Assembly (NCBI RefSeq): GCF_056712565.1
Contig: NZ_CM160072.1
Direction: 5' to 3' (one strand)
Length of the DNA stretch: 64,000 nucleotides
Position numbers: made by a program. Positions 15,501 through 21,500 of the stretch are shown here, piece after piece (the first letter of the stretch is position 1; each line of letters starts with the position of its first letter).

Positions 15501-18500
15501 CGCTGGGGGTGATTGGCGTGATTTATGAAGCGCGCCCGAACGTGACGGTTGATGTTGCTTCCCTGTGCCTGAAAACCGGTAACGCGGTGATCCTGCGCGG
15601 CGGCAAAGAAACCTGTCGCACTAACGCTGCAACGGTAGCGGTGATTCAGGACGCCCTGAAATCCTGCGGCTTACCGGCGGGTGCCGTGCAGGCAATTGAT
15701 AATCCTGACCGTGCGCTGGTCAGTGAAATGCTGCGTATGGATAAATACATCGACATGCTGATCCCGCGCGGTGGGGCTGGTTTGCATAAACTGTGCCGCG
15801 AGCAGTCGACAATCCCGGTGATCACAGGCGGTATAGGCGTATGCCATATTTACGTTGATGAAAGTGCAGAGATCGCTGAAGCCCTGAAAGTAATTGTCAA
15901 CGCGAAAACTCAGCGACCGAGCACATGTAATACGGTAGAAACGTTGCTGGTAAATAAAAACATCGCAGATAGCTTCCTGCCCGCATTAAGCAAACAAATG
16001 GCGGAAAGCGGCGTGACGTTACACGCTGATGCAGCCGCGCTGGCGCAGTTGCAGGCAGGCCCCGCGAAGGTGGTGGCTGTTAAAGCCGAAGAGTATGACG
16101 ATGAGTTTCTGTCATTAGATTTGAACGTCAAAATCGTTAGCGATCTGGATGACGCCATTGCCCATATTCGTGAACACGGCACGCAACACTCCGATGCGAT
16201 CCTGACCCGCGATATGCGCAACGCCCAGCGTTTTGTTAACGAAGTGGATTCCTCCGCTGTTTACGTTAACGCCTCTACGCGTTTTACCGACGGCGGCCAG
16301 TTTGGTCTGGGGGCGGAAGTTGCGGTAAGCACACAAAAACTCCACGCGCGCGGCCCAATGGGGCTGGAAGCTCTGACCACTTACAAGTGGATCGGCATTG
16401 GTGATTACACCATTCGTGCGTAAATAAAACCGGGTGATGCAAAAGTAGCCATTTGATTCACAAGGCCATTGACGCATCGCCCGGTTAGTTTTAACCTTGT
16501 CCACCGTGATTCACGTTCGTGAACATGTCCTTTCAGGGCCGATATAGCTCAGTTGGTAGAGCAGCGCATTCGTAATGCGAAGGTCGTAGGTTCGACTCCT
16601 ATTATCGGCACCATCAAGAAAATCAATAACTTAGCTTAACTTCTCTAAGAAATTGTATCTTCTGTTATCACTTACAAACGCCTATACGTTGTTATGGGCT
16701 TTGGTAGTTTAACACGTATGGGCGAGTAGTTCCCAGGCTCAACCTCGTAACAAGTTCCTTTGAAGCTGGAAGACGTGCCACCGTCTCTAAACCTTCTACC
16801 AAAACTCTTAGCAAGATGTTCCACACCTGGCGCGGTGTCCAATGATGCTACACGTCGTGAGACGTTGCAGAGGATAAACAGGCTAAATGATGGGAAGAGT
16901 TTTAAGTGCAATAGTGGATTAAAGCCCACCTCTTCAAAACCTAACTTGATCGGGAAAGAATCAAGCTCTAGCACGGTTTCGTCCACCGGAGTACAACGGG
17001 TGCCTGATAAGAGAAGAACTGCTAAGACTTCATAGCTTTTGTGAAAAAGCCCTTTTTAGTGGATACGCCTACGGCGCTTATTTTTTGGTATAACCATCAA
17101 AGGCGCTTTATGGCTCCTATTGTCTTGAAAATGTATCTTTACTTGTATTGTGTTTTATGCGTAGTCTCCCTGTGTAGTATGTAACTTGTTAATTTTCATA
17201 TGAATACAGAGGCAACACGATGAAAAACATTGCAGCTATAAAACGTAATAACCGCAAGATTCACGCTCGTAAGTTCCTGTCTACGCCAGAGGGAAAAGCC
17301 TGGCTAGAGCGAAAGCAACGAGAGAACGAAGAAAGAAAACTCCTTAGTGAGTTGAAATGGCTTAGAGAGGATTTCTGAAAATCTCCAGAACGCAACAAGA
17401 CGCATTCTAACGCTGTTTTCATTGCTTGGTATAGGGATGTATATGTGATGTGTGTTTAATGCGTCTGTGAGCTTGTTTTGTGCCTTATTTTGCATTTTCA
17501 TAATGCAGAAGAGAACACGGAAAACCTTAAAATTAATTATTGGGGTATTTAAGGCTATTTTAAGGGGATTTAAGGGTATTAAACTTGATTTAATTGATTA
17601 AAATATAAACAGATAGCTCTGCATCTTATTGATTTATAAGGTTATTTTTGAATAAAGGTAAATAAAAAATAAATAGCCATAAATAGCTATAAATAGCTAT
17701 AAATACATCTAAATACATATGAATCCCCTCCCTTATGGCTAGATTGCGAGAGGTGCTTAACGCGATTTTTAGCGCCCCCCGATCTGGAAAATCCAGAATC
17801 CCCAAATATCAAGGAGGCATTACGCCTCCTCTTCTTCCTTCTTAATTCGCTGTACCGTTGAAGGAGCAACATTAAAGCTCTCGGCGGTTTTACGCACTGA
17901 CACGCCAGCGGAAAGGGCTTTCTTTATACCTTCCCTATCTACTGCCTTCCCTTTACCACGCTTTGTAGGATTGACGGCTTGCGCTTCTCGTTTACGCTCT
18001 AACATCAGTTCACGTTCACACGTTGCAACTGCCGACAACATCGTAAGCATCATCTTTCCCATCGCGCTTGTAATGTCAGCAATGATTCCTTCTTTGTGAA
18101 ATCGAACAATTACACCTCGATTATTAAGTTGTTCCACTAAGGCAAGAATGTCTAAGGTGTTACGCCCTAAACGATCAAGAGAGTGGACGTGTAAGGTGTC
18201 GCCTTCTCTCAGATAGGATAAACACGCCTGCAATCCTGGACGGTTAGTGTCTTTACCTGACAGCTTATCTTCAAAGACTTTATCAAGCGTTACTCCTGCA
18301 AGCTGGCGATCAGTGTTCTGATCTACAGTGCTCACACGCTTATAACCGATATTGCTCATAAAATCCTCTTAATGTATCGATTTGGCACTACTTCAATGCA
18401 AATGAGTATATCGTATTCATTTGGTCTGTTTCAAGCCTTATAGGTACGGAATATTACACGATTTAGATGTATTCATTTGGTATGCCTAATGGATACACAG

Positions 18501-21500
18501 GGGAATAGATTAAATGGTGTTCTGTTTATACAGGTTTATTTGTAGATCAACAATTTGGCATTTCTAAACAGATGTTTGAACGTTGCCAAATGTCTTGACA
18601 ACACAAGAAAAGGGCTTGCTATGCCACGCATTACACGAAATAAGGCTATAAAAACAAAATAAATTTTAAAATTTGCACAAACGAGAGAACTCATTCGACA
18701 AATAATAGATTAATTTTTAGCCAACAATTTCTGATGGTGCTCTGTAAGCCGCATTACACAAGGATTTGCGAAAGTGATGTAAAAGTGAAGAAAGTAAGAA
18801 TTGAACTTTTAAGCTACTTTTTCATTGAATTTTTAGTATGGAATTACACAGGAATAAGTTAGGGATATTCTATGATTTACACAGGGAATATAGGGGGATT
18901 ATGGCACACACATAGAAAGACATTACACAGAGTGCTATGTGACAAATGGATGTAACGAGAGGTTACATTCAGCTATCTGAAATGCTCTCTGTAAGAAAGT
19001 TGGTAGTAACGATATGTTACATAGACTAATTATTGAATGTAACGATATTACACATCGGAAGATGATTGAATGTAACGGTAGCTCACAGTGAACTAGGGGT
19101 AGGTCATAGTGAACTACCCCCACAGAATTCTGTTACCCCTATCAAGTCTGATACCCCTACCCCTATCAAAACTAATACCCGATAAGAATAAATAACACCT
19201 AGGAAATGATTTCCGATCTATTTAGGAAGTAACCTAGGAAGTGGTTTCCTACCTACTTAGGAAATGAGTTCCTACCTACCTAGGAAATGAGTTCCACCAA
19301 TACTATAATTAAATACTATAATTAAATAATATAAATAATATTCTTTATACTATATAGGTCATAGTGAGCTAGGGGGTAGGTCACTGTGAGCTACCCCCAC
19401 AGAATTCTGTTAATCTTAACTTTTAAAGAGATTTTTACCCTAACAAAATTCTGTTACCCCACCCTAACAGAATTCTGTTAGACACCCCCACAGAAAACTG
19501 TTAGACACCCCCACAGAATTCTGTTACCTATTAGATCATTTATTAAATTACTTATTAAATTATAATATTATATATTTATTTATATGATCTTTTGCCTTCC
19601 GGCGTTAGCTTCACTCTCTGGCAAGCAGCCTTACTCCGCTACCTTTGGGCTTCGTGGCTGGCCCGTTCCGCTCACACCGAAAGCAAAGCGTTACTTTCTT
19701 CGTGTAACTATCGTTGGCGGTAACGCCCACGAAGAAATACTATTGCGCTGTGCGCAGAAGAGTAATCACCTAACCAATCATACTGATTGCTTATGTGTTA
19801 ACTCTATCTCTCTACCTCGTAATTACCCTCCTACACTTAATAACTCTCGTTATTCTCTGTAGTTGTGTAATTACTCGAAGAGAGAGCGGCTAAAGCTCAA
19901 TTACACTCTGCTTTCCTCGTGTAATTTCACTAAGCCTCAATACAATTCCACTTCCTACATTCTGTAGTCGTGTAATTGTTTTCGGTGGAAAAGCCAGAGG
20001 CGACACCGAAAGAGAATTCTGATCTTATTAATCTTATCTATCTTAGTTATCTTACTTACTTATCTTACTTACTTTATCTACTTTATTATTAATAATAGCT
20101 TTATAAGCTCTCTGTAGCTCTCTGACGCAAGAAACAGCATTCAGGAAGGGAATCACCTTAGAAAAGTGTTCTTTGCGTCATAATGTGTTTTATGAAGGAT
20201 TCAGAGGTGTTTCATAACAGGAGTGTATAGAGGATACTTTAATTAATTAAAAATAAGGGGTCTAAATGCTTCTCTAACAGCATTAAGCAGGGTAGGGAAT
20301 GGAAACGCATTGTCTACATATATAAACTCACTACAGGGCTTTACAGAGCGTTTTATAAAGTGACTCTCTATCTTATATCTACCATCACCTTTTCATATAC
20401 CTAACAAATACAAAATAAGCCCCTTAAATAAGCCTCTGGCGAGCTAAACAGCCATTAGATAAGGCAATGTATTGCTTTTATCAAAATCTCGTTAGAACGC
20501 GTTTTAGAGCGTTTTAGCGGATAATGAAGAATAGCACTACACAGAAGAGCACGAATTGCTAAGAAAAAATGTAAGTGCATGAAAAAGATCAGATTTTTTA
20601 TGAAAAGGTATTGACAAATGTTTCTTTATATGTAATAATAGGTATTAGAGGGACAGAAAACATTCTTCTCTAAATAATCAAAATCAATGCACTTTGAAGC
20701 CGTCAGGCTTGCAAGGTGTTTTATTTCTTTTAACTGAATAAGGAGTTTTTTATGAAATGGTTTACACCGGAACACGTCGTCCAGGCATTTAAAAAAGGTG
20801 AGCTTACACGCCACCAAGTAGTAATGAACCGTAATATGGCAAGGAGTCGAGGTTATCCAGAGCGTGAAAAATGTTTTGACGATGCACTGAAAATTATTGA
20901 TGAACTGCGTAAGAAAGAAGCAGAGAAAGAATAATAGACAAGAGGAGGAGAAAACTATGAGCGAAACTAAGAAACCAATTCCGCGCACTTACCTACACGT
21001 TGACCCTGAAATCTTCAAGGTTTTATTTGCTGAAGCCAAGAAAAGGCAAATTATGGTCAGTGATTTGATGTTAGAAATCATTACTGAAGCAGCAGAGAAC
21101 ATCAAACAAAAAAAGGGTAAGTGATCCTCATTCACTTTAGTAGCGCATTAAGCGTGATTTATAAGGAGATTTTTAATGATTAATGAAGAACAATTTGTAA
21201 AAGTTCCTATGTGGATTCTAAAAATAAGCCAAGTAAACGGGCATAAATTTACAGATAGTGCTAAAAACCTTTACTGCTATCTGAAAGGGTTTGATCGTGC
21301 ATTTCCCTCTTACGCTAAGATAGGCGATGTTTTTGGCATAACACCAAGAGCAGCAGAGGAAAGGGTTAAGAAATTGCTCGAAATGGGGTTAATTATAAAA
21401 GATGCACGACCAGGAAGTTCTAATGTCTATCAAGTGGTAGATATTCCACAAGAAGAAGCTAGACAAGAAGCCAAAACACAACAAGAAGCTACCGTTAAAG

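What the first reader, a model, noticed from the sequence alone, without database searches (positions are those of the whole stretch)
18440..19980. ATTACAC heptamer array flanking the putative origin in opposite orientations
- ATTACAC occurs on the + strand at 18453, 18630, 18753, 18843, 18922, 19047 and 19900, plus TTTACAC at 18876.
- Its complement GTGTAAT occurs at 19865, 19919 and 19970. Two of these are embedded in a longer repeat, TCTGTAG(T)(T/C)GTGTAATT.
- Related TGTAACG/GTTACAT inverted pairs lie at 18949-19075.

A given 7-mer is expected about once per 16 kb per strand, so this is strong enrichment in 1.5 kb of non-coding DNA. The forward copies lie left of the iteron/AT block and the inverted copies lie right of it.

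Possible roles: a centromere-like or silencing array, binding sites for the adjacent serine recombinase (accessory sites of a res-like locus), or replication-fork or packaging signals. None of these is established.
Basis: seen in the sequence. Interest (0 to 1): 0.6.

Follow-up and report, generated by a model that had tools for sequence, protein, structure and literature searches.

The report
Inward-pointing motif arrays flanking island origin
The repeated ATTACAC words are real, and they are one version of a short directional DNA signal (TTRCAC) that lines both sides of the replication origin of a small phage-satellite-like island found in about one in eight E. coli genomes, always pointing inward; it most probably docks a replication-helper protein, not the neighbouring recombinase.

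Summary
ATTACAC occurs 10 times in the 2.4-kb gene-free stretch 18360-20751, against 0.46 expected (0 of 2000 shuffles reach 10). The stretch is the control and origin region of a 12,745-bp island integrated at tRNA-Thr, present in 726 of 5426 complete E. coli genomes.

The heptamer is the window-clade form of a broader motif, nATTRCACR. In the second island clade and in a Kluyvera relative the same architecture is built from ATTGCAC. In all three, copies left of the iteron/AT-rich block are on the + strand and copies to its right are on the - strand. Distinct site families: left 20 + and 4 -, right 10 - and 2 +. Individual sites are gained and lost, but number and polarity persist.

- They are not the initiator's iterons: five other repeat families follow the Rep variant.
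- They are not recombinase sites: counts are the same with or without the recombinase, which has its own co-varying repeats, and 0 of 350 matched segments are inverted.

Best reading (inferred): oriented protein-docking sites that assist the origin. The leading candidate reader is host DnaA, since the motif matches positions 3-9 of the DnaA box. An island winged-helix protein is second.

The parts
16590..16614 (+). attL: the 3' end of tRNA-Thr(CGT) (gene 16538-16613), left boundary of the island
   Evidence: Direct repeat GTTCGACTCCTATTATCGGCACCAT, repeated at 29335-29359, 12,745 bp apart. tRNA found.
29335..29359 (+). attR, right boundary of the island, next to the tyrosine integrase (27919-29253, - strand)
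   Evidence: 92% identical copy of attL. Integrase: PF00589 plus DUF6538.
17820..18359 (-). Small serine recombinase (179 aa), resolvase/invertase type
   Evidence: PF00239 at 1e-33. Equally close to gamma-delta/Tn3 resolvase (9e-29) and Gin (3e-26). Absent from about 40% of related loci.
18374..18490 (.). Probable res-like site of the recombinase (ATTTGG/TCATTT repeats). The first ATTACAC (18453) lies inside it.
   Evidence: Repeats (D17). This repeat type averages 5.9 copies upstream of the >=96% recombinase variant and about 0-0.9 upstream of the 62% variant, which carries GTRGTGAT repeats instead. The function is inferred.
18453..19055 (+). Left array of nATTRCACR sites, all on the + strand: 18453, 18630, 18673 (TTGCAC), 18753, 18843, 18876 (TTTACAC), 18922, 19047. 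Decayed copies lie at 18493 (ATACAC) and 18905 (CACACAC).
   Evidence: The decayed copies are intact in relatives. The 18843 site (GGAATTACACAGG) is present in 70 of 81 loci and invariant in the 11-sequence alignment.
18947..19095 (.). TGTAACG-N5-GTTACA units: iterons of a foreign Rep specificity (type T1). The ATTACAC at 19047 sits in a degenerate one.
   Evidence: D6, D8. 5-7 copies occur in loci whose Rep belongs to clusters 4, 10 and 11.
19079..19530 (.). Origin core: ACAGAATTCTGT iterons (T2, cognate to this island's Rep) at 19115-19139 and 19392-19530. It also holds remnants of three other iteron families: GGTCAnnGTGA (19079-19116, 19355-19393), ACCCCTATCAA (19133-19180) and TAGGAAATGATTTCC (19197-19295).
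   Evidence: Rep cluster against iteron type: the window's Rep cluster averages 4.5 T2 copies.
19292..19365 (.). AT-rich block 1 (GC 0.16)
19522..19599 (.). AT-rich block 2 (GC 0.15), next to the cognate iterons: the probable unwinding element
   Evidence: The role is inferred from its position.
19600..20020 (.). Right module M4: a GC-richer, strongly self-complementary segment that carries the right array. It includes the conserved core CGCTCACACCGAA...TGCGCTGTGCGC at 19669-19755.
   Evidence: Fold z-scores -6.7 (+ strand) and -9.1 (- strand). The core is present in all 108 related loci, by construction of the search.
19700..19976 (-). Right array, all on the - strand: GTGTAAC at 19702, GTGTAAT at 19865, 19919 and 19970 (read on the - strand: GTTACACGA, ATTACACAA, ATTACACGA, ATTACACGA). 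They lie in inverted repeats HP1 19819-19874, HP2 19899-19926 and HP3 19940-19979. The + copy at 19900 is the left arm of HP2.
   Evidence: (I2, D13). The orthologous first site is GTGCAAA in clade B.
20611..20639 (+). Strong sigma-70-type promoter of the island operon (TTGACA-17-AATAAT, with TG)
   Evidence: 11 of 12 matches. Conserved in relatives.
21176..21829 (+). Rep: lambda-O-like winged-helix replication initiator (217 aa)
   Evidence: PHROG 270 at 7.6e-11 and PHROG 391 'O-like' at 1.2e-7. HTH_36.
21841..22116 (+). Orf91: small winged-helix protein, clade-linked, second candidate reader of the motif
   Evidence: AlphaFold2 model, pLDDT 81, wHTH topology. Foldseek best hits are CodY, ArsR and PapI winged-helix domains. 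Present in 32 of 36 window-clade loci. A homologue with 24% identity occurs in clade B.

Best explanation
The ATTACAC heptamers are the window-clade version of a conserved, strand-polar 8-9-bp site, nATTRCACR. It forms two converging arrays on either side of the iteron/AT-rich replication origin of a 12.7-kb satellite-like island integrated at a tRNA gene.

I read them as oriented protein-docking sites that belong to the origin, not to the recombinase and not to the Rep iterons. A protein bound at these sites would face the AT-rich unwinding element from both flanks. It would then help the lambda-O-like Rep, which has no recognisable helicase loader of its own, to open the DNA and load the host helicase, or it would throttle that step.

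The invariant TTRCAC plus the usual following A equals positions 3-9 of the E. coli box TTWTNCACA. The only variable position (A or G) falls on the box's N. The part matched, TnCACA, is the part DnaA reads in the major groove. The second candidate is the island's small winged-helix protein (Orf91 family).

Shown: enrichment, strict polarity, conservation across three lineages with site turnover, and independence from the Rep type and from the recombinase. Inferred: that a protein binds, which protein it is, and the effect on initiation.
For: - Enrichment and polarity in the window.
- The same architecture in 40 window-clade loci (left + 5.2, left - 0.02, right - 2.8). With the 6-mer TTRCAC it also holds in 34 clade-B loci, where TTGCAC averages left + 3.6, left - 0.03, right - 2.8.
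- A Kluyvera relative has a different replication protein (a DEAD-box helicase) and TTGCAC on + at 4352, 4576, 4809 and on - at 5275, 5439.
- Distinct site families: left 20 + and 4 -; right 10 - and 2 +. Three of the four left - families lie in or immediately upstream of a recombinase gene. The two right + families are hairpin partners.
- Turnover with maintained number: 18493 and 18905 are decayed in the window but intact elsewhere, and the 18753 site is lost in L025 and L037.
- Counts follow the clade and not the Rep cluster, whereas five other repeat families do follow the Rep cluster.
- A reader tolerant of A or G, present in every host: both variants coexist on the left in both clades. 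Consensus over 29 site families: box5 A 15 and G 14; box9 A 18 of 29; box2 A or T 24 of 29.
- DnaA-box anatomy: TnCACA is read by the recognition helix in the major groove and the 5' TTA by Arg399 in the minor groove. Position 5 is free. [quoted passage not shown] The oriC left-half and right-half arrays have opposite orientation (PMC5742627 and PMC5043019).
- No helicase loader or helicase was found among the island proteins.
Against: - Nothing here shows binding.
- Against DnaA specifically: box position 2 is A in 19 of 29 site families, where the consensus has T. Position 9 is G in 6 of 29.
- No consensus box exists in the stretch. Boxes with at most one mismatch are not enriched: 5 found against about 5.9 expected from the window rate.
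- Spacing is irregular (33-177 bp), unlike the 2-4-bp spacing of the oriC low-affinity arrays (PMC5742627).
- Against Orf91: its clade-B homologue is missing or degenerate in 13 of 30 clade-B loci that still carry the arrays.
- Many of the 108 loci are near-identical, so locus counts are not independent. The site-family count is the fairer measure.
- The distance from the left array to the AT-rich block varies with the number of iteron cassettes.
Confidence: 0.45

Rival explanations
1. Polar signals read by a moving enzyme rather than by a static binder. Such a signal is a short oriented word that a replication fork component (helicase, primase), an end-processing nuclease or a packaging motor recognises only when it approaches from one side, as with KOPS for FtsK or Chi for RecBCD. 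Read as 5'-YYGTGYAAT-3', the word lies on the lagging-strand template of both forks leaving the origin. It also points outward, as a Chi-like protector of the origin region would.
For: Strict polarity with a single switch point, irregular spacing, and gain and loss of individual sites with maintained density. These are the evolutionary signature of translocase-read words. Strand composition also flips near 19100: GC skew is +0.2 to +0.3 on the left and -0.1 to -0.45 on the right.
Against: The word is confined to about 700 bp on the left and 400 bp on the right of the origin. Elsewhere in the island TTRCAC shows no polarity. It bears no resemblance to E. coli Chi or KOPS (own knowledge). No candidate motor is encoded in the E. 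coli islands.
Confidence: 0.15
2. An RNA (or single-strand DNA) pairing system. Left copies (AUUACACRR) and right copies (YYGUGUAAU) on the same strand are complementary and would pair with each other. This resembles the seqA/seqB/seqC pairing of phage P4 RNA immunity, which would suit an island with no recognisable protein repressor.
For: - Perfect 9-nt complements: ATTACACGA (18453, 18630) against TCGTGTAAT (19917, 19968), and ATTACACAA (18753) against TTGTGTAAT (19863).
- The A-to-G change on the left is matched by T-to-C on the right between clades.
- The right module is strongly structured.
- No repressor gene was recognised.
Against: - The same pattern is expected for inverted double-strand sites.
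- Clade B keeps TTACAC copies on the left, including the widely conserved 18843-type site (70 of 81 loci). These would form an A.C mismatch with its GTGCAA right copies.
- No promoter-like site feeds either array, and promoter-like sites are depleted in the stretch: 4 found against 8.8 expected.
- No Rfam family matches.
- Hairpin arms change without compensation in L006 and L007.
Confidence: 0.12
3. No function of its own. On this view the copies are leftovers of old duplications and of decayed iteron half-sites (GTTACAT resembles ATTACAC), carried along in a recombining, AT-rich non-coding region.
For: - The copy at 19047 sits in a degenerate TGTAACG-type iteron.
- Sub-groups of sites share 14-16 nt, for example TTACACAGGGAATA at 18493, 18843 and 18876.
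- Within the window clade the whole region is about 95% conserved, so the heptamers are not visibly better conserved than their flanks.
- In L037 a deletion removes two of the three right hairpins.
Against: Enrichment and perfect strand partition recur in three lineages with non-orthologous sites and a different base at position 4. New copies arise where the window has none. Drift would not keep 20:4 and 2:10 strand ratios.
Confidence: 0.1
4. A centromere-like or silencing array. The sites would be bound by a partition or nucleoid-associated protein that holds or silences the excised or integrated island.
For: It is a dispersed array of a short word in AT-rich DNA. The word differs by one base from the P1 parS box A heptamer ATTTCAC (own knowledge).
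Against: No ParA- or ParB-type gene was detected in the island with Pfam, PHROGs or NCBIfam. The sites are not tandem. Polarity converging on the origin has no obvious meaning for a centromere.
Confidence: 0.05
5. Binding or accessory sites of the adjacent serine recombinase (a res-like locus, or targets for inversion or deletion).
For: The sites are adjacent to the gene, and 18453 lies in the probable res region. HP2 (8-bp inverted arms, 28 bp overall) has the geometry of a dimer site, and there are three inverted repeats of different spacing, as in res.
Against: - Arrays are equally rich in loci with no recombinase.
- The 62% recombinase variant occurs with both array types.
- Each recombinase variant has its own co-varying repeats directly upstream.
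- 0 of 350 matched segments are inverted.
- The right copies lie 1.3-1.6 kb from the gene, on the far side of the origin.
Confidence: 0.03

Closest known systems
[quoted passage not shown]
   Same: - A short asymmetric site whose 3' part is TnCAC(A).
- Two arrays of opposite orientation belonging to one origin.
- Only moderate similarity to the consensus.
- In the oriC sequence as I recall it, the left-half boxes point at the unwinding element, as both arrays do here. PMC5742627 gives the box orientations.
   Different: - oriC boxes are 2-4 bp apart and sit on one side of the unwinding element. Here spacing is 33-177 bp and the arrays flank the AT-rich block.
- Box positions 1-2 do not match (A at position 2).
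- There is no high-affinity anchor box.
- The initiator here is an O-like Rep with its own iterons.
DnaA boxes flanking iteron plasmid origins (P1 oriR, R6K gamma ori, RK2 oriV, pSC101); recalled from own knowledge, not tested here
   Same: A winged-helix Rep with iterons, an AT-rich block and host-factor sites on one or both flanks. A GC-richer segment follows the AT-rich block, as in RK2 oriV.
   Different: Those boxes match the consensus closely and are few (1-5). Here there are 8 plus 4 weak matches.
SaPI/PICI replication origins (two sets of short iterons flanking an AT-rich region); own knowledge
   Same: A satellite island with short repeats on both sides of an AT-rich block.
   Different: SaPI iterons are bound by the island's own Rep helicase, encoded next to the origin. 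Here the initiator-specific iterons are other, longer palindromic repeats, and no helicase is encoded.
Phage P4 ori and crr type I iterons (TGTTCACC) bound by the winged-helix domain of the alpha protein; own knowledge
   Same: An enterobacterial satellite with an asymmetric 8-bp word (core TnCAC) in two separated clusters. The winged-helix reader is a model for Orf91.
   Different: P4 alpha is a primase-helicase. The island shares no homology or gene content with P4.
res sites of Tn3/gamma-delta-type resolvases
   Same: Three inverted-repeat sites of unequal spacing (HP1-HP3), with a small serine recombinase nearby.
   Different: They are in the wrong place, they are independent of the recombinase, and a separate co-varying repeat set occupies the res position.

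Membership tests
Iterons of the island's own Rep initiator | The repeat type co-varies with the Rep variant | tested here: not met
   In 69 loci grouped into 14 Rep clusters, five other repeat families track the Rep cluster. ATTACAC counts track the island clade instead.
Iterons of the island's own Rep initiator | Regularly spaced repeats of about 17-25 bp directly next to the AT-rich block | tested here: not met
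   Heptamer spacing is 33-177 bp, and none lies in 19101-19589, where the 23-24-bp-spaced ACAGAATTCTGT iterons sit.
res / accessory sites of a small serine recombinase | Presence depends on the recombinase, and the sites co-vary with it | tested here: not met
   4.7 copies with the recombinase (n = 22) against 5.5 without (n = 15). The recombinase variants co-vary with other repeats in the 170 bp upstream.
res / accessory sites of a small serine recombinase | Natural rearrangements (inversion or resolution) between copies | tested here: not met
   0 of 350 matched segments are inverted. The one deletion seen (L037) joins two 17-nt direct repeats and needs no recombinase.
E. coli DnaA boxes (TTWTNCACA) | A 9-mer with at most 2 mismatches, including the major-groove part TnCACA | tested here: inconclusive
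   Positions 3-8 are invariant in all 29 site families, and position 9 is A in 18. Positions 1-2 do not fit the consensus: position 2 is A in 19 and T in 5. Criteria taken from PMC5043019 and PMC5742627.
E. coli DnaA boxes (TTWTNCACA) | At least one consensus or high-affinity box, or an excess of near-consensus boxes | tested here: not met
   No exact box lies in 18360-20751. Five boxes have at most 1 mismatch, against about 5.9 expected from the window rate.
E. coli DnaA boxes (TTWTNCACA) | Bound by DnaA | not testable with these tools
   This needs EMSA, footprinting or ChIP.
oriC-type low-affinity DnaA arrays | Same-orientation boxes 2-4 bp apart, allowing head-to-tail oligomers | tested here: not met
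   Orientation is uniform within each array, but spacing is 33-177 bp (criterion from PMC5742627).
Partition centromere (parS/sopC type) | Partner ParA/ParB-type genes in the element | tested here: not met
   None was found with Pfam, PHROGs or NCBIfam among the island proteins.
SaPI/PICI-type origin | Short repeats flanking an AT-rich region, next to a Pri-Rep helicase gene that binds them | tested here: not met
   The flanking geometry is present. The initiator, however, is a 217-aa O-like winged-helix protein, and no helicase or primase was found.
Known RNA families | A match to an Rfam covariance model | tested here: not met
   Only tRNA-Thr matches at E <= 1 in 16000-30000.

The most novel reading that the evidence does not exclude
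The converging TTRCAC arrays are a new kind of orientation-dependent origin element in an undescribed, widespread family of E. coli phage-satellite-like islands. They would not be docking sites for a known initiator. They would instead be either polar words that steer or stop a moving enzyme (fork, nuclease or packaging motor) at the island origin, or the two halves of a protein-free RNA pairing switch of the P4-immunity type. In either case this would be coupled to a cassette system in which Rep and iteron pairs are swapped among islands.
Probability: 0.15. Interest if true: 0.75.

Novelty: new variant of a known kind. Interest (0 to 1): 0.5.

Why it matters
The island family is present in 13% of complete E. 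coli genomes. It encodes a capsid protein, a tape-measure-like protein and a distal-tail-like protein, yet no terminase, portal or helicase. I found no description of it in the held literature.

Its 2.4-kb gene-free centre appears to hold all of its cis-acting machinery. Sorting that centre into separate layers makes the element experimentally tractable:
- a recombinase site;
- swappable Rep-specific iterons;
- a host-independent but Rep-independent polar motif.

If the polar sites are weak DnaA boxes, they would show how an O-like initiator without a P-like loader recruits the host helicase. They would also show how a satellite couples its replication to the host's DnaA-ATP level. If they are not, they are an unassigned orientation-dependent origin signal conserved across genera.

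Tried and rejected
- **Phage and plasmid similarity.** There was no match in 50,697 phage records, near or distant. Only two marginal plasmid-collection hits appeared. No helper or donor could be named.
- **Rfam.** Nothing beyond the tRNA.
- **Exact DnaA boxes.** None in the stretch. Boxes with at most 1 mismatch are not enriched.
- **Sites as -35 elements of converging promoters.** The scan finds none at the sites and finds a deficit of promoter-like sites overall.
- **Small ORFs starting after the purine-rich 3' flanks.** Frames are broken by indels in relatives.
- **Tus/Ter sites.** By eye the right copies resemble the Ter core only after removing 2 nt, and they lack the G6 position. Rejected on the basis of own knowledge.
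- **Integrase arm-type sites.** The arrays start 1.8 kb from attL.
- **Covariation support for an RNA in the right module.** Only three sequence types exist among 108 loci. The long closing stem is degraded without compensation in several clade-B loci. The inter-motif hairpin is clearly stable only in the window type.
- **Phylogenetic footprinting within the window clade.** The region is too uniformly conserved to single out the heptamers.
- **Cross-species search with the capsid protein.** Only 5 loci were returned.
- **Homologue searches for Orf91 and Orf60.** Only Escherichia orphans were returned, with no names.
- **Five literature searches.** None found a description of the island or the motif.

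Full report

Yes. ATTACAC (either strand) occurs 22 times in the 64-kb window, against 8.45 +/- 3.13 expected. Ten of these lie in 18453-19976.

Dinucleotide-preserving shuffles of the gene-free stretch 18360-20751 give 0.46 +/- 0.68 copies. None of 2000 reaches 10. Any 7-mer at all reaches 10 in only 13 of 2000. The word extends to ATTACACRR: 8 of the 10 exact matches in the window lie here, on both sides of the origin block.

**2. Where are we?**

The window is E. coli chromosome, 100% identical to strain GPEC548 over the stretch. A 25-bp direct repeat at 16590-16614 (the 3' end of tRNA-Thr) and 29335-29359 bounds a 12,745-bp island. In order, the island carries:
- a small serine recombinase (17820-18359, - strand);
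- 2.4 kb without genes;
- a strong promoter at 20611;
- an operon with two small proteins, a lambda-O-like winged-helix Rep (PHROG 270, 7.6e-11), a 91-aa protein, four unknown proteins, a lambda-E-like major capsid protein (PF03864), a tape-measure-like protein (PHROG 16051) and a Dit-like protein (PF21821);
- a DUF6538 tyrosine integrase.

No terminase, portal, helicase, primase or loader was detected, so it looks like a phage satellite.

The gene-free stretch is found in 726 of 5426 complete E. coli genomes, at tRNA-Thr, tRNA-Leu or tRNA-Gly. It is absent from the phage collection. I found no paper describing the island.

**3. Anatomy of the gene-free stretch**

Comparison with ten E. coli relatives shows five modules.
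- **M1**: variable, with or without the recombinase.
- **M2**: 18651-18975, conserved in all.
- **M3**: iteron cassettes and AT-rich blocks, mosaic.
- **M4**: about 19600-20020, in two sequence types that share the short core CGCTCACANCGAA...TGCGCTGTGCGC.
- **M5**: conserved, ending in the promoter.

Using that core as a search pattern, I collected 25 loci from viral contigs and 69 from metagenomes. With the E. coli loci this makes 108. There are two island clades:
- **Clade A** is the window type. The capsid protein is about 97% identical across it.
- **Clade B** has a capsid protein about 72% identical to the window's.

**4. What the heptamers are not**

*They are not the Rep iterons.* Clustering the Rep proteins of 69 loci gives 14 clusters, and each goes with its own repeat family next to the AT-rich block:
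- ACAGAATTCTGT (the window's cluster, mean 4.5 copies, and a clade-B cluster, 5.0);
- TGTAACG..GTTACA (5-7 copies);
- AGGAARTGRnTTCC;
- GGTCAnnGTGA;
- CCCCTATYAA.

The window holds remnants of all five, but only the first matches its Rep. ATTACAC counts follow the clade, not the Rep cluster.

*They are not recombinase sites.*
- Clade-A loci have 4.7 left copies with the recombinase (n = 22) and 5.5 without it (n = 15).
- The two recombinase variants (>=96% and 62% identical to the window's) each carry their own repeats in the 170 bp upstream: ATTTGG/TCATTT type, mean 5.9, against GTRGTGAT type, mean 3. That is where a res site is expected. In the window it is 18374-18490.
- The 62% variant occurs with both array types.
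- None of 350 matched segments is inverted.
- The recombinase is equally close to gamma-delta resolvase and to Gin.

**5. What they are**

The decisive result came from asking which words are over-represented in clade B. The top 7-mers there are ATTGCAC and its complement. With the 6-mer TTRCAC the two clades show the same architecture (39 clade-A and 34 clade-B loci).

| Clade | Word | Left + | Left - | Right - |
|---|---|---|---|---|
| A | TTACAC | 6.4 | 0.7 | 3.9 |
| A | TTGCAC | 1.9 | 0 | 0 |
| B | TTGCAC | 3.6 | 0.03 | 2.8 |
| B | TTACAC | 2.1 | 0.9 | 0 |

- The first right-hand site, just after the conserved CCGCTCACANCGAA, is GTGTAAC in clade A and GTGCAAA in clade B.
- A Kluyvera relative has a capsid protein 63% identical, a DEAD-box helicase in place of the O-like Rep and no conserved core. 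It still has TTGCAC on + at 4352, 4576, 4809 and on - at 5275, 5439 within its 1.66-kb gap.
- Grouping all sites into families by their 20-nt context gives left 20 + and 4 -, and right 10 - and 2 +.
- Three of the four left - families lie in or immediately upstream of a recombinase gene. The two right + families are the partner arms of inverted repeats.
- In the window: left +8/-0, middle 0/0, right +1/-4, remainder 0/0.

Sites turn over.
- 18493 (ATACAC) is intact in recombinase-less relatives.
- 18905 (CACACAC) is ATTACAC in Escherichia sp. E1V33.
- The 18753 site is ACTACAC in two loci.
- The 18843 site is present in 70 of 81 loci.

The consensus over 29 site families is (A)ATTRCACA(R).

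The three right-hand GTGTAAT copies sit in three inverted repeats (HP1-HP3). One relative has HP1 and HP3 fused by a deletion between the 17-nt direct repeats.

**6. How it most likely works**

Four things are shown:
- a short asymmetric word;
- two arrays that both point at the iteron/AT-rich block;
- maintenance across three lineages despite site turnover and a base change;
- independence from the Rep type, the recombinase and (partly) the small island proteins.

The simplest reading is a set of oriented docking sites for a protein that every host supplies and that tolerates A or G at the fourth base.

The invariant TTRCAC plus the usual A is identical to positions 3-9 of the E. coli DnaA box TTWTNCACA, and the variable base is the box's N. 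According to PMC5742627:
- the recognition helix reads TnCACA in the major groove;
- Arg399 reads the 5' TTA in the minor groove;
- low-affinity boxes resemble the consensus only moderately;
- the oriC left-half and right-half arrays have opposite orientations.

PMC5043019 notes that boxes vary most in the first three positions and the last.

An O-like Rep with no P-like loader would need such help. Iteron plasmids use DnaA in this way (own knowledge).

Against DnaA:
- Position 2 is A in 19 of 29 families, and position 9 is G in 6.
- There is no consensus box and no excess of near-consensus boxes.
- The spacing is far too wide for head-to-tail oligomers.

The second candidate is Orf91. It is a winged-helix protein (pLDDT 81), found only in Escherichia and present in 32 of 36 clade-A loci. 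It has a 24%-identical homologue in clade B. However, that homologue is missing or degenerate in 13 of 30 clade-B loci that keep the arrays.

I therefore commit to 'oriented origin-accessory docking sites' at 0.45. Within that, DnaA comes first and Orf91 second.

**7. Rivals**

- **A moving-enzyme signal.** It fits polarity, irregular spacing and turnover, and the strand composition also flips near 19100. But the word is confined to about 1 kb around the origin.
- **RNA or single-strand pairing between left and right copies.** It fits the 9-nt complements and the concerted A/G-T/C change. But the same pattern is expected of inverted duplex sites, clade B keeps TTACAC copies that would mispair, and no promoters are predicted.
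- **Neutral leftovers.** These cannot explain the recurrent strand partition.
- **The recombinase idea.** It is essentially refuted.

**8. Novelty and verdict**

Origin-flanking accessory sites are a known kind of thing. This particular polar word, its converging layout and its conservation across swappable Rep/iteron cassettes appear undescribed, as does the island family itself. No reader is established. The finding is real and moderately interesting.

Noticed in passing
window 16590-29359: A 12,745-bp island bounded by tRNA-Thr att repeats. It has an O-like Rep, a lambda-E-like capsid protein, a tape-measure-like protein, a Dit-like protein and a DUF6538 integrase, but no terminase, portal or helicase. 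It occurs in 726 of 5426 complete E. coli genomes, at three different tRNA genes. No description was found in the literature held.
   Followed up: partly
window 18947-19530; loci L003, L004, L011, L019, L037: Rep proteins and their iterons are exchanged as cassettes. At least five iteron families each track one group of Rep variants. The window stacks remnants of all five, although only ACAGAATTCTGT matches its own Rep. The extra sets could be recombination scars or decoys for the Reps of rival islands.
   Followed up: partly
window 19600-20020 (core 19669-19755): A segment of about 430 nt next to the AT-rich block folds far better than shuffles (z -6.7 and -9.1). It contains two short motifs, CGCTCACANCGAA and the hairpin GCGCTGTGCGC, shared by both sequence types. 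The hairpin between them differs in sequence between types and is clearly stable only in the window type. There is no Rfam match, and its role is unknown.
   Followed up: partly
window 18374-18490: ATTTGG/TCATTT repeats and a 25-bp palindrome (CAAATGA-N11-TCATTTG) lie directly upstream of the serine recombinase. The 62%-identical recombinase variant carries GTRGTGAT repeats at the same place. This is a probable res site, overlapping the recombinase promoter at 18405-18434.
   Followed up: partly
window 21841-22116; L004:6425-6694: A family of small winged-helix proteins is encoded right after Rep. They are only 24% identical between the two island clades, found only in Escherichia and unnamed. 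The gene is often degenerate in clade B.
   Followed up: partly
window 20255-20520: Two related units of about 160 nt lie upstream of the operon promoter (repeat 20324-20355 / 20485-20516, and the box AAGCCTCTGGCGAGCTAAAC at 20431). They are conserved in both clades, and the box is duplicated in clade B. Unexplained.
   Followed up: no
window 29513-29851: Just outside attR there is an N-terminal fragment of a P4-type integrase (MKLNARQIDTAKPKEKAYKLADGGGLYLLV...). It is probably the remnant of another element at the same tRNA hotspot. This part differs from the otherwise identical GPEC548 record.
   Followed up: no
L039 (Kluyvera sp. MAG) 2246-7442: This distant relative of the island has a 485-aa DEAD-box helicase where E. 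coli islands have the O-like Rep. Upstream of the gene-free gap it has a RelA/SpoT-domain gene and a small tyrosine recombinase.
   Followed up: partly
L041 (contig JAEWTL010000083.1): A contig labelled 'Bacillota bacterium' MAG carries this Escherichia-type island, including the conserved core. This is probably bin contamination.
   Followed up: no
window 18694-18708: The conserved TTCGACAAATAATAG (TTCGATAAATAATAG in relatives) resembles the H-NS high-affinity motif TCGATAAATT, as recalled from own knowledge. It may mark silencing of the AT-rich stretch.
   Followed up: no
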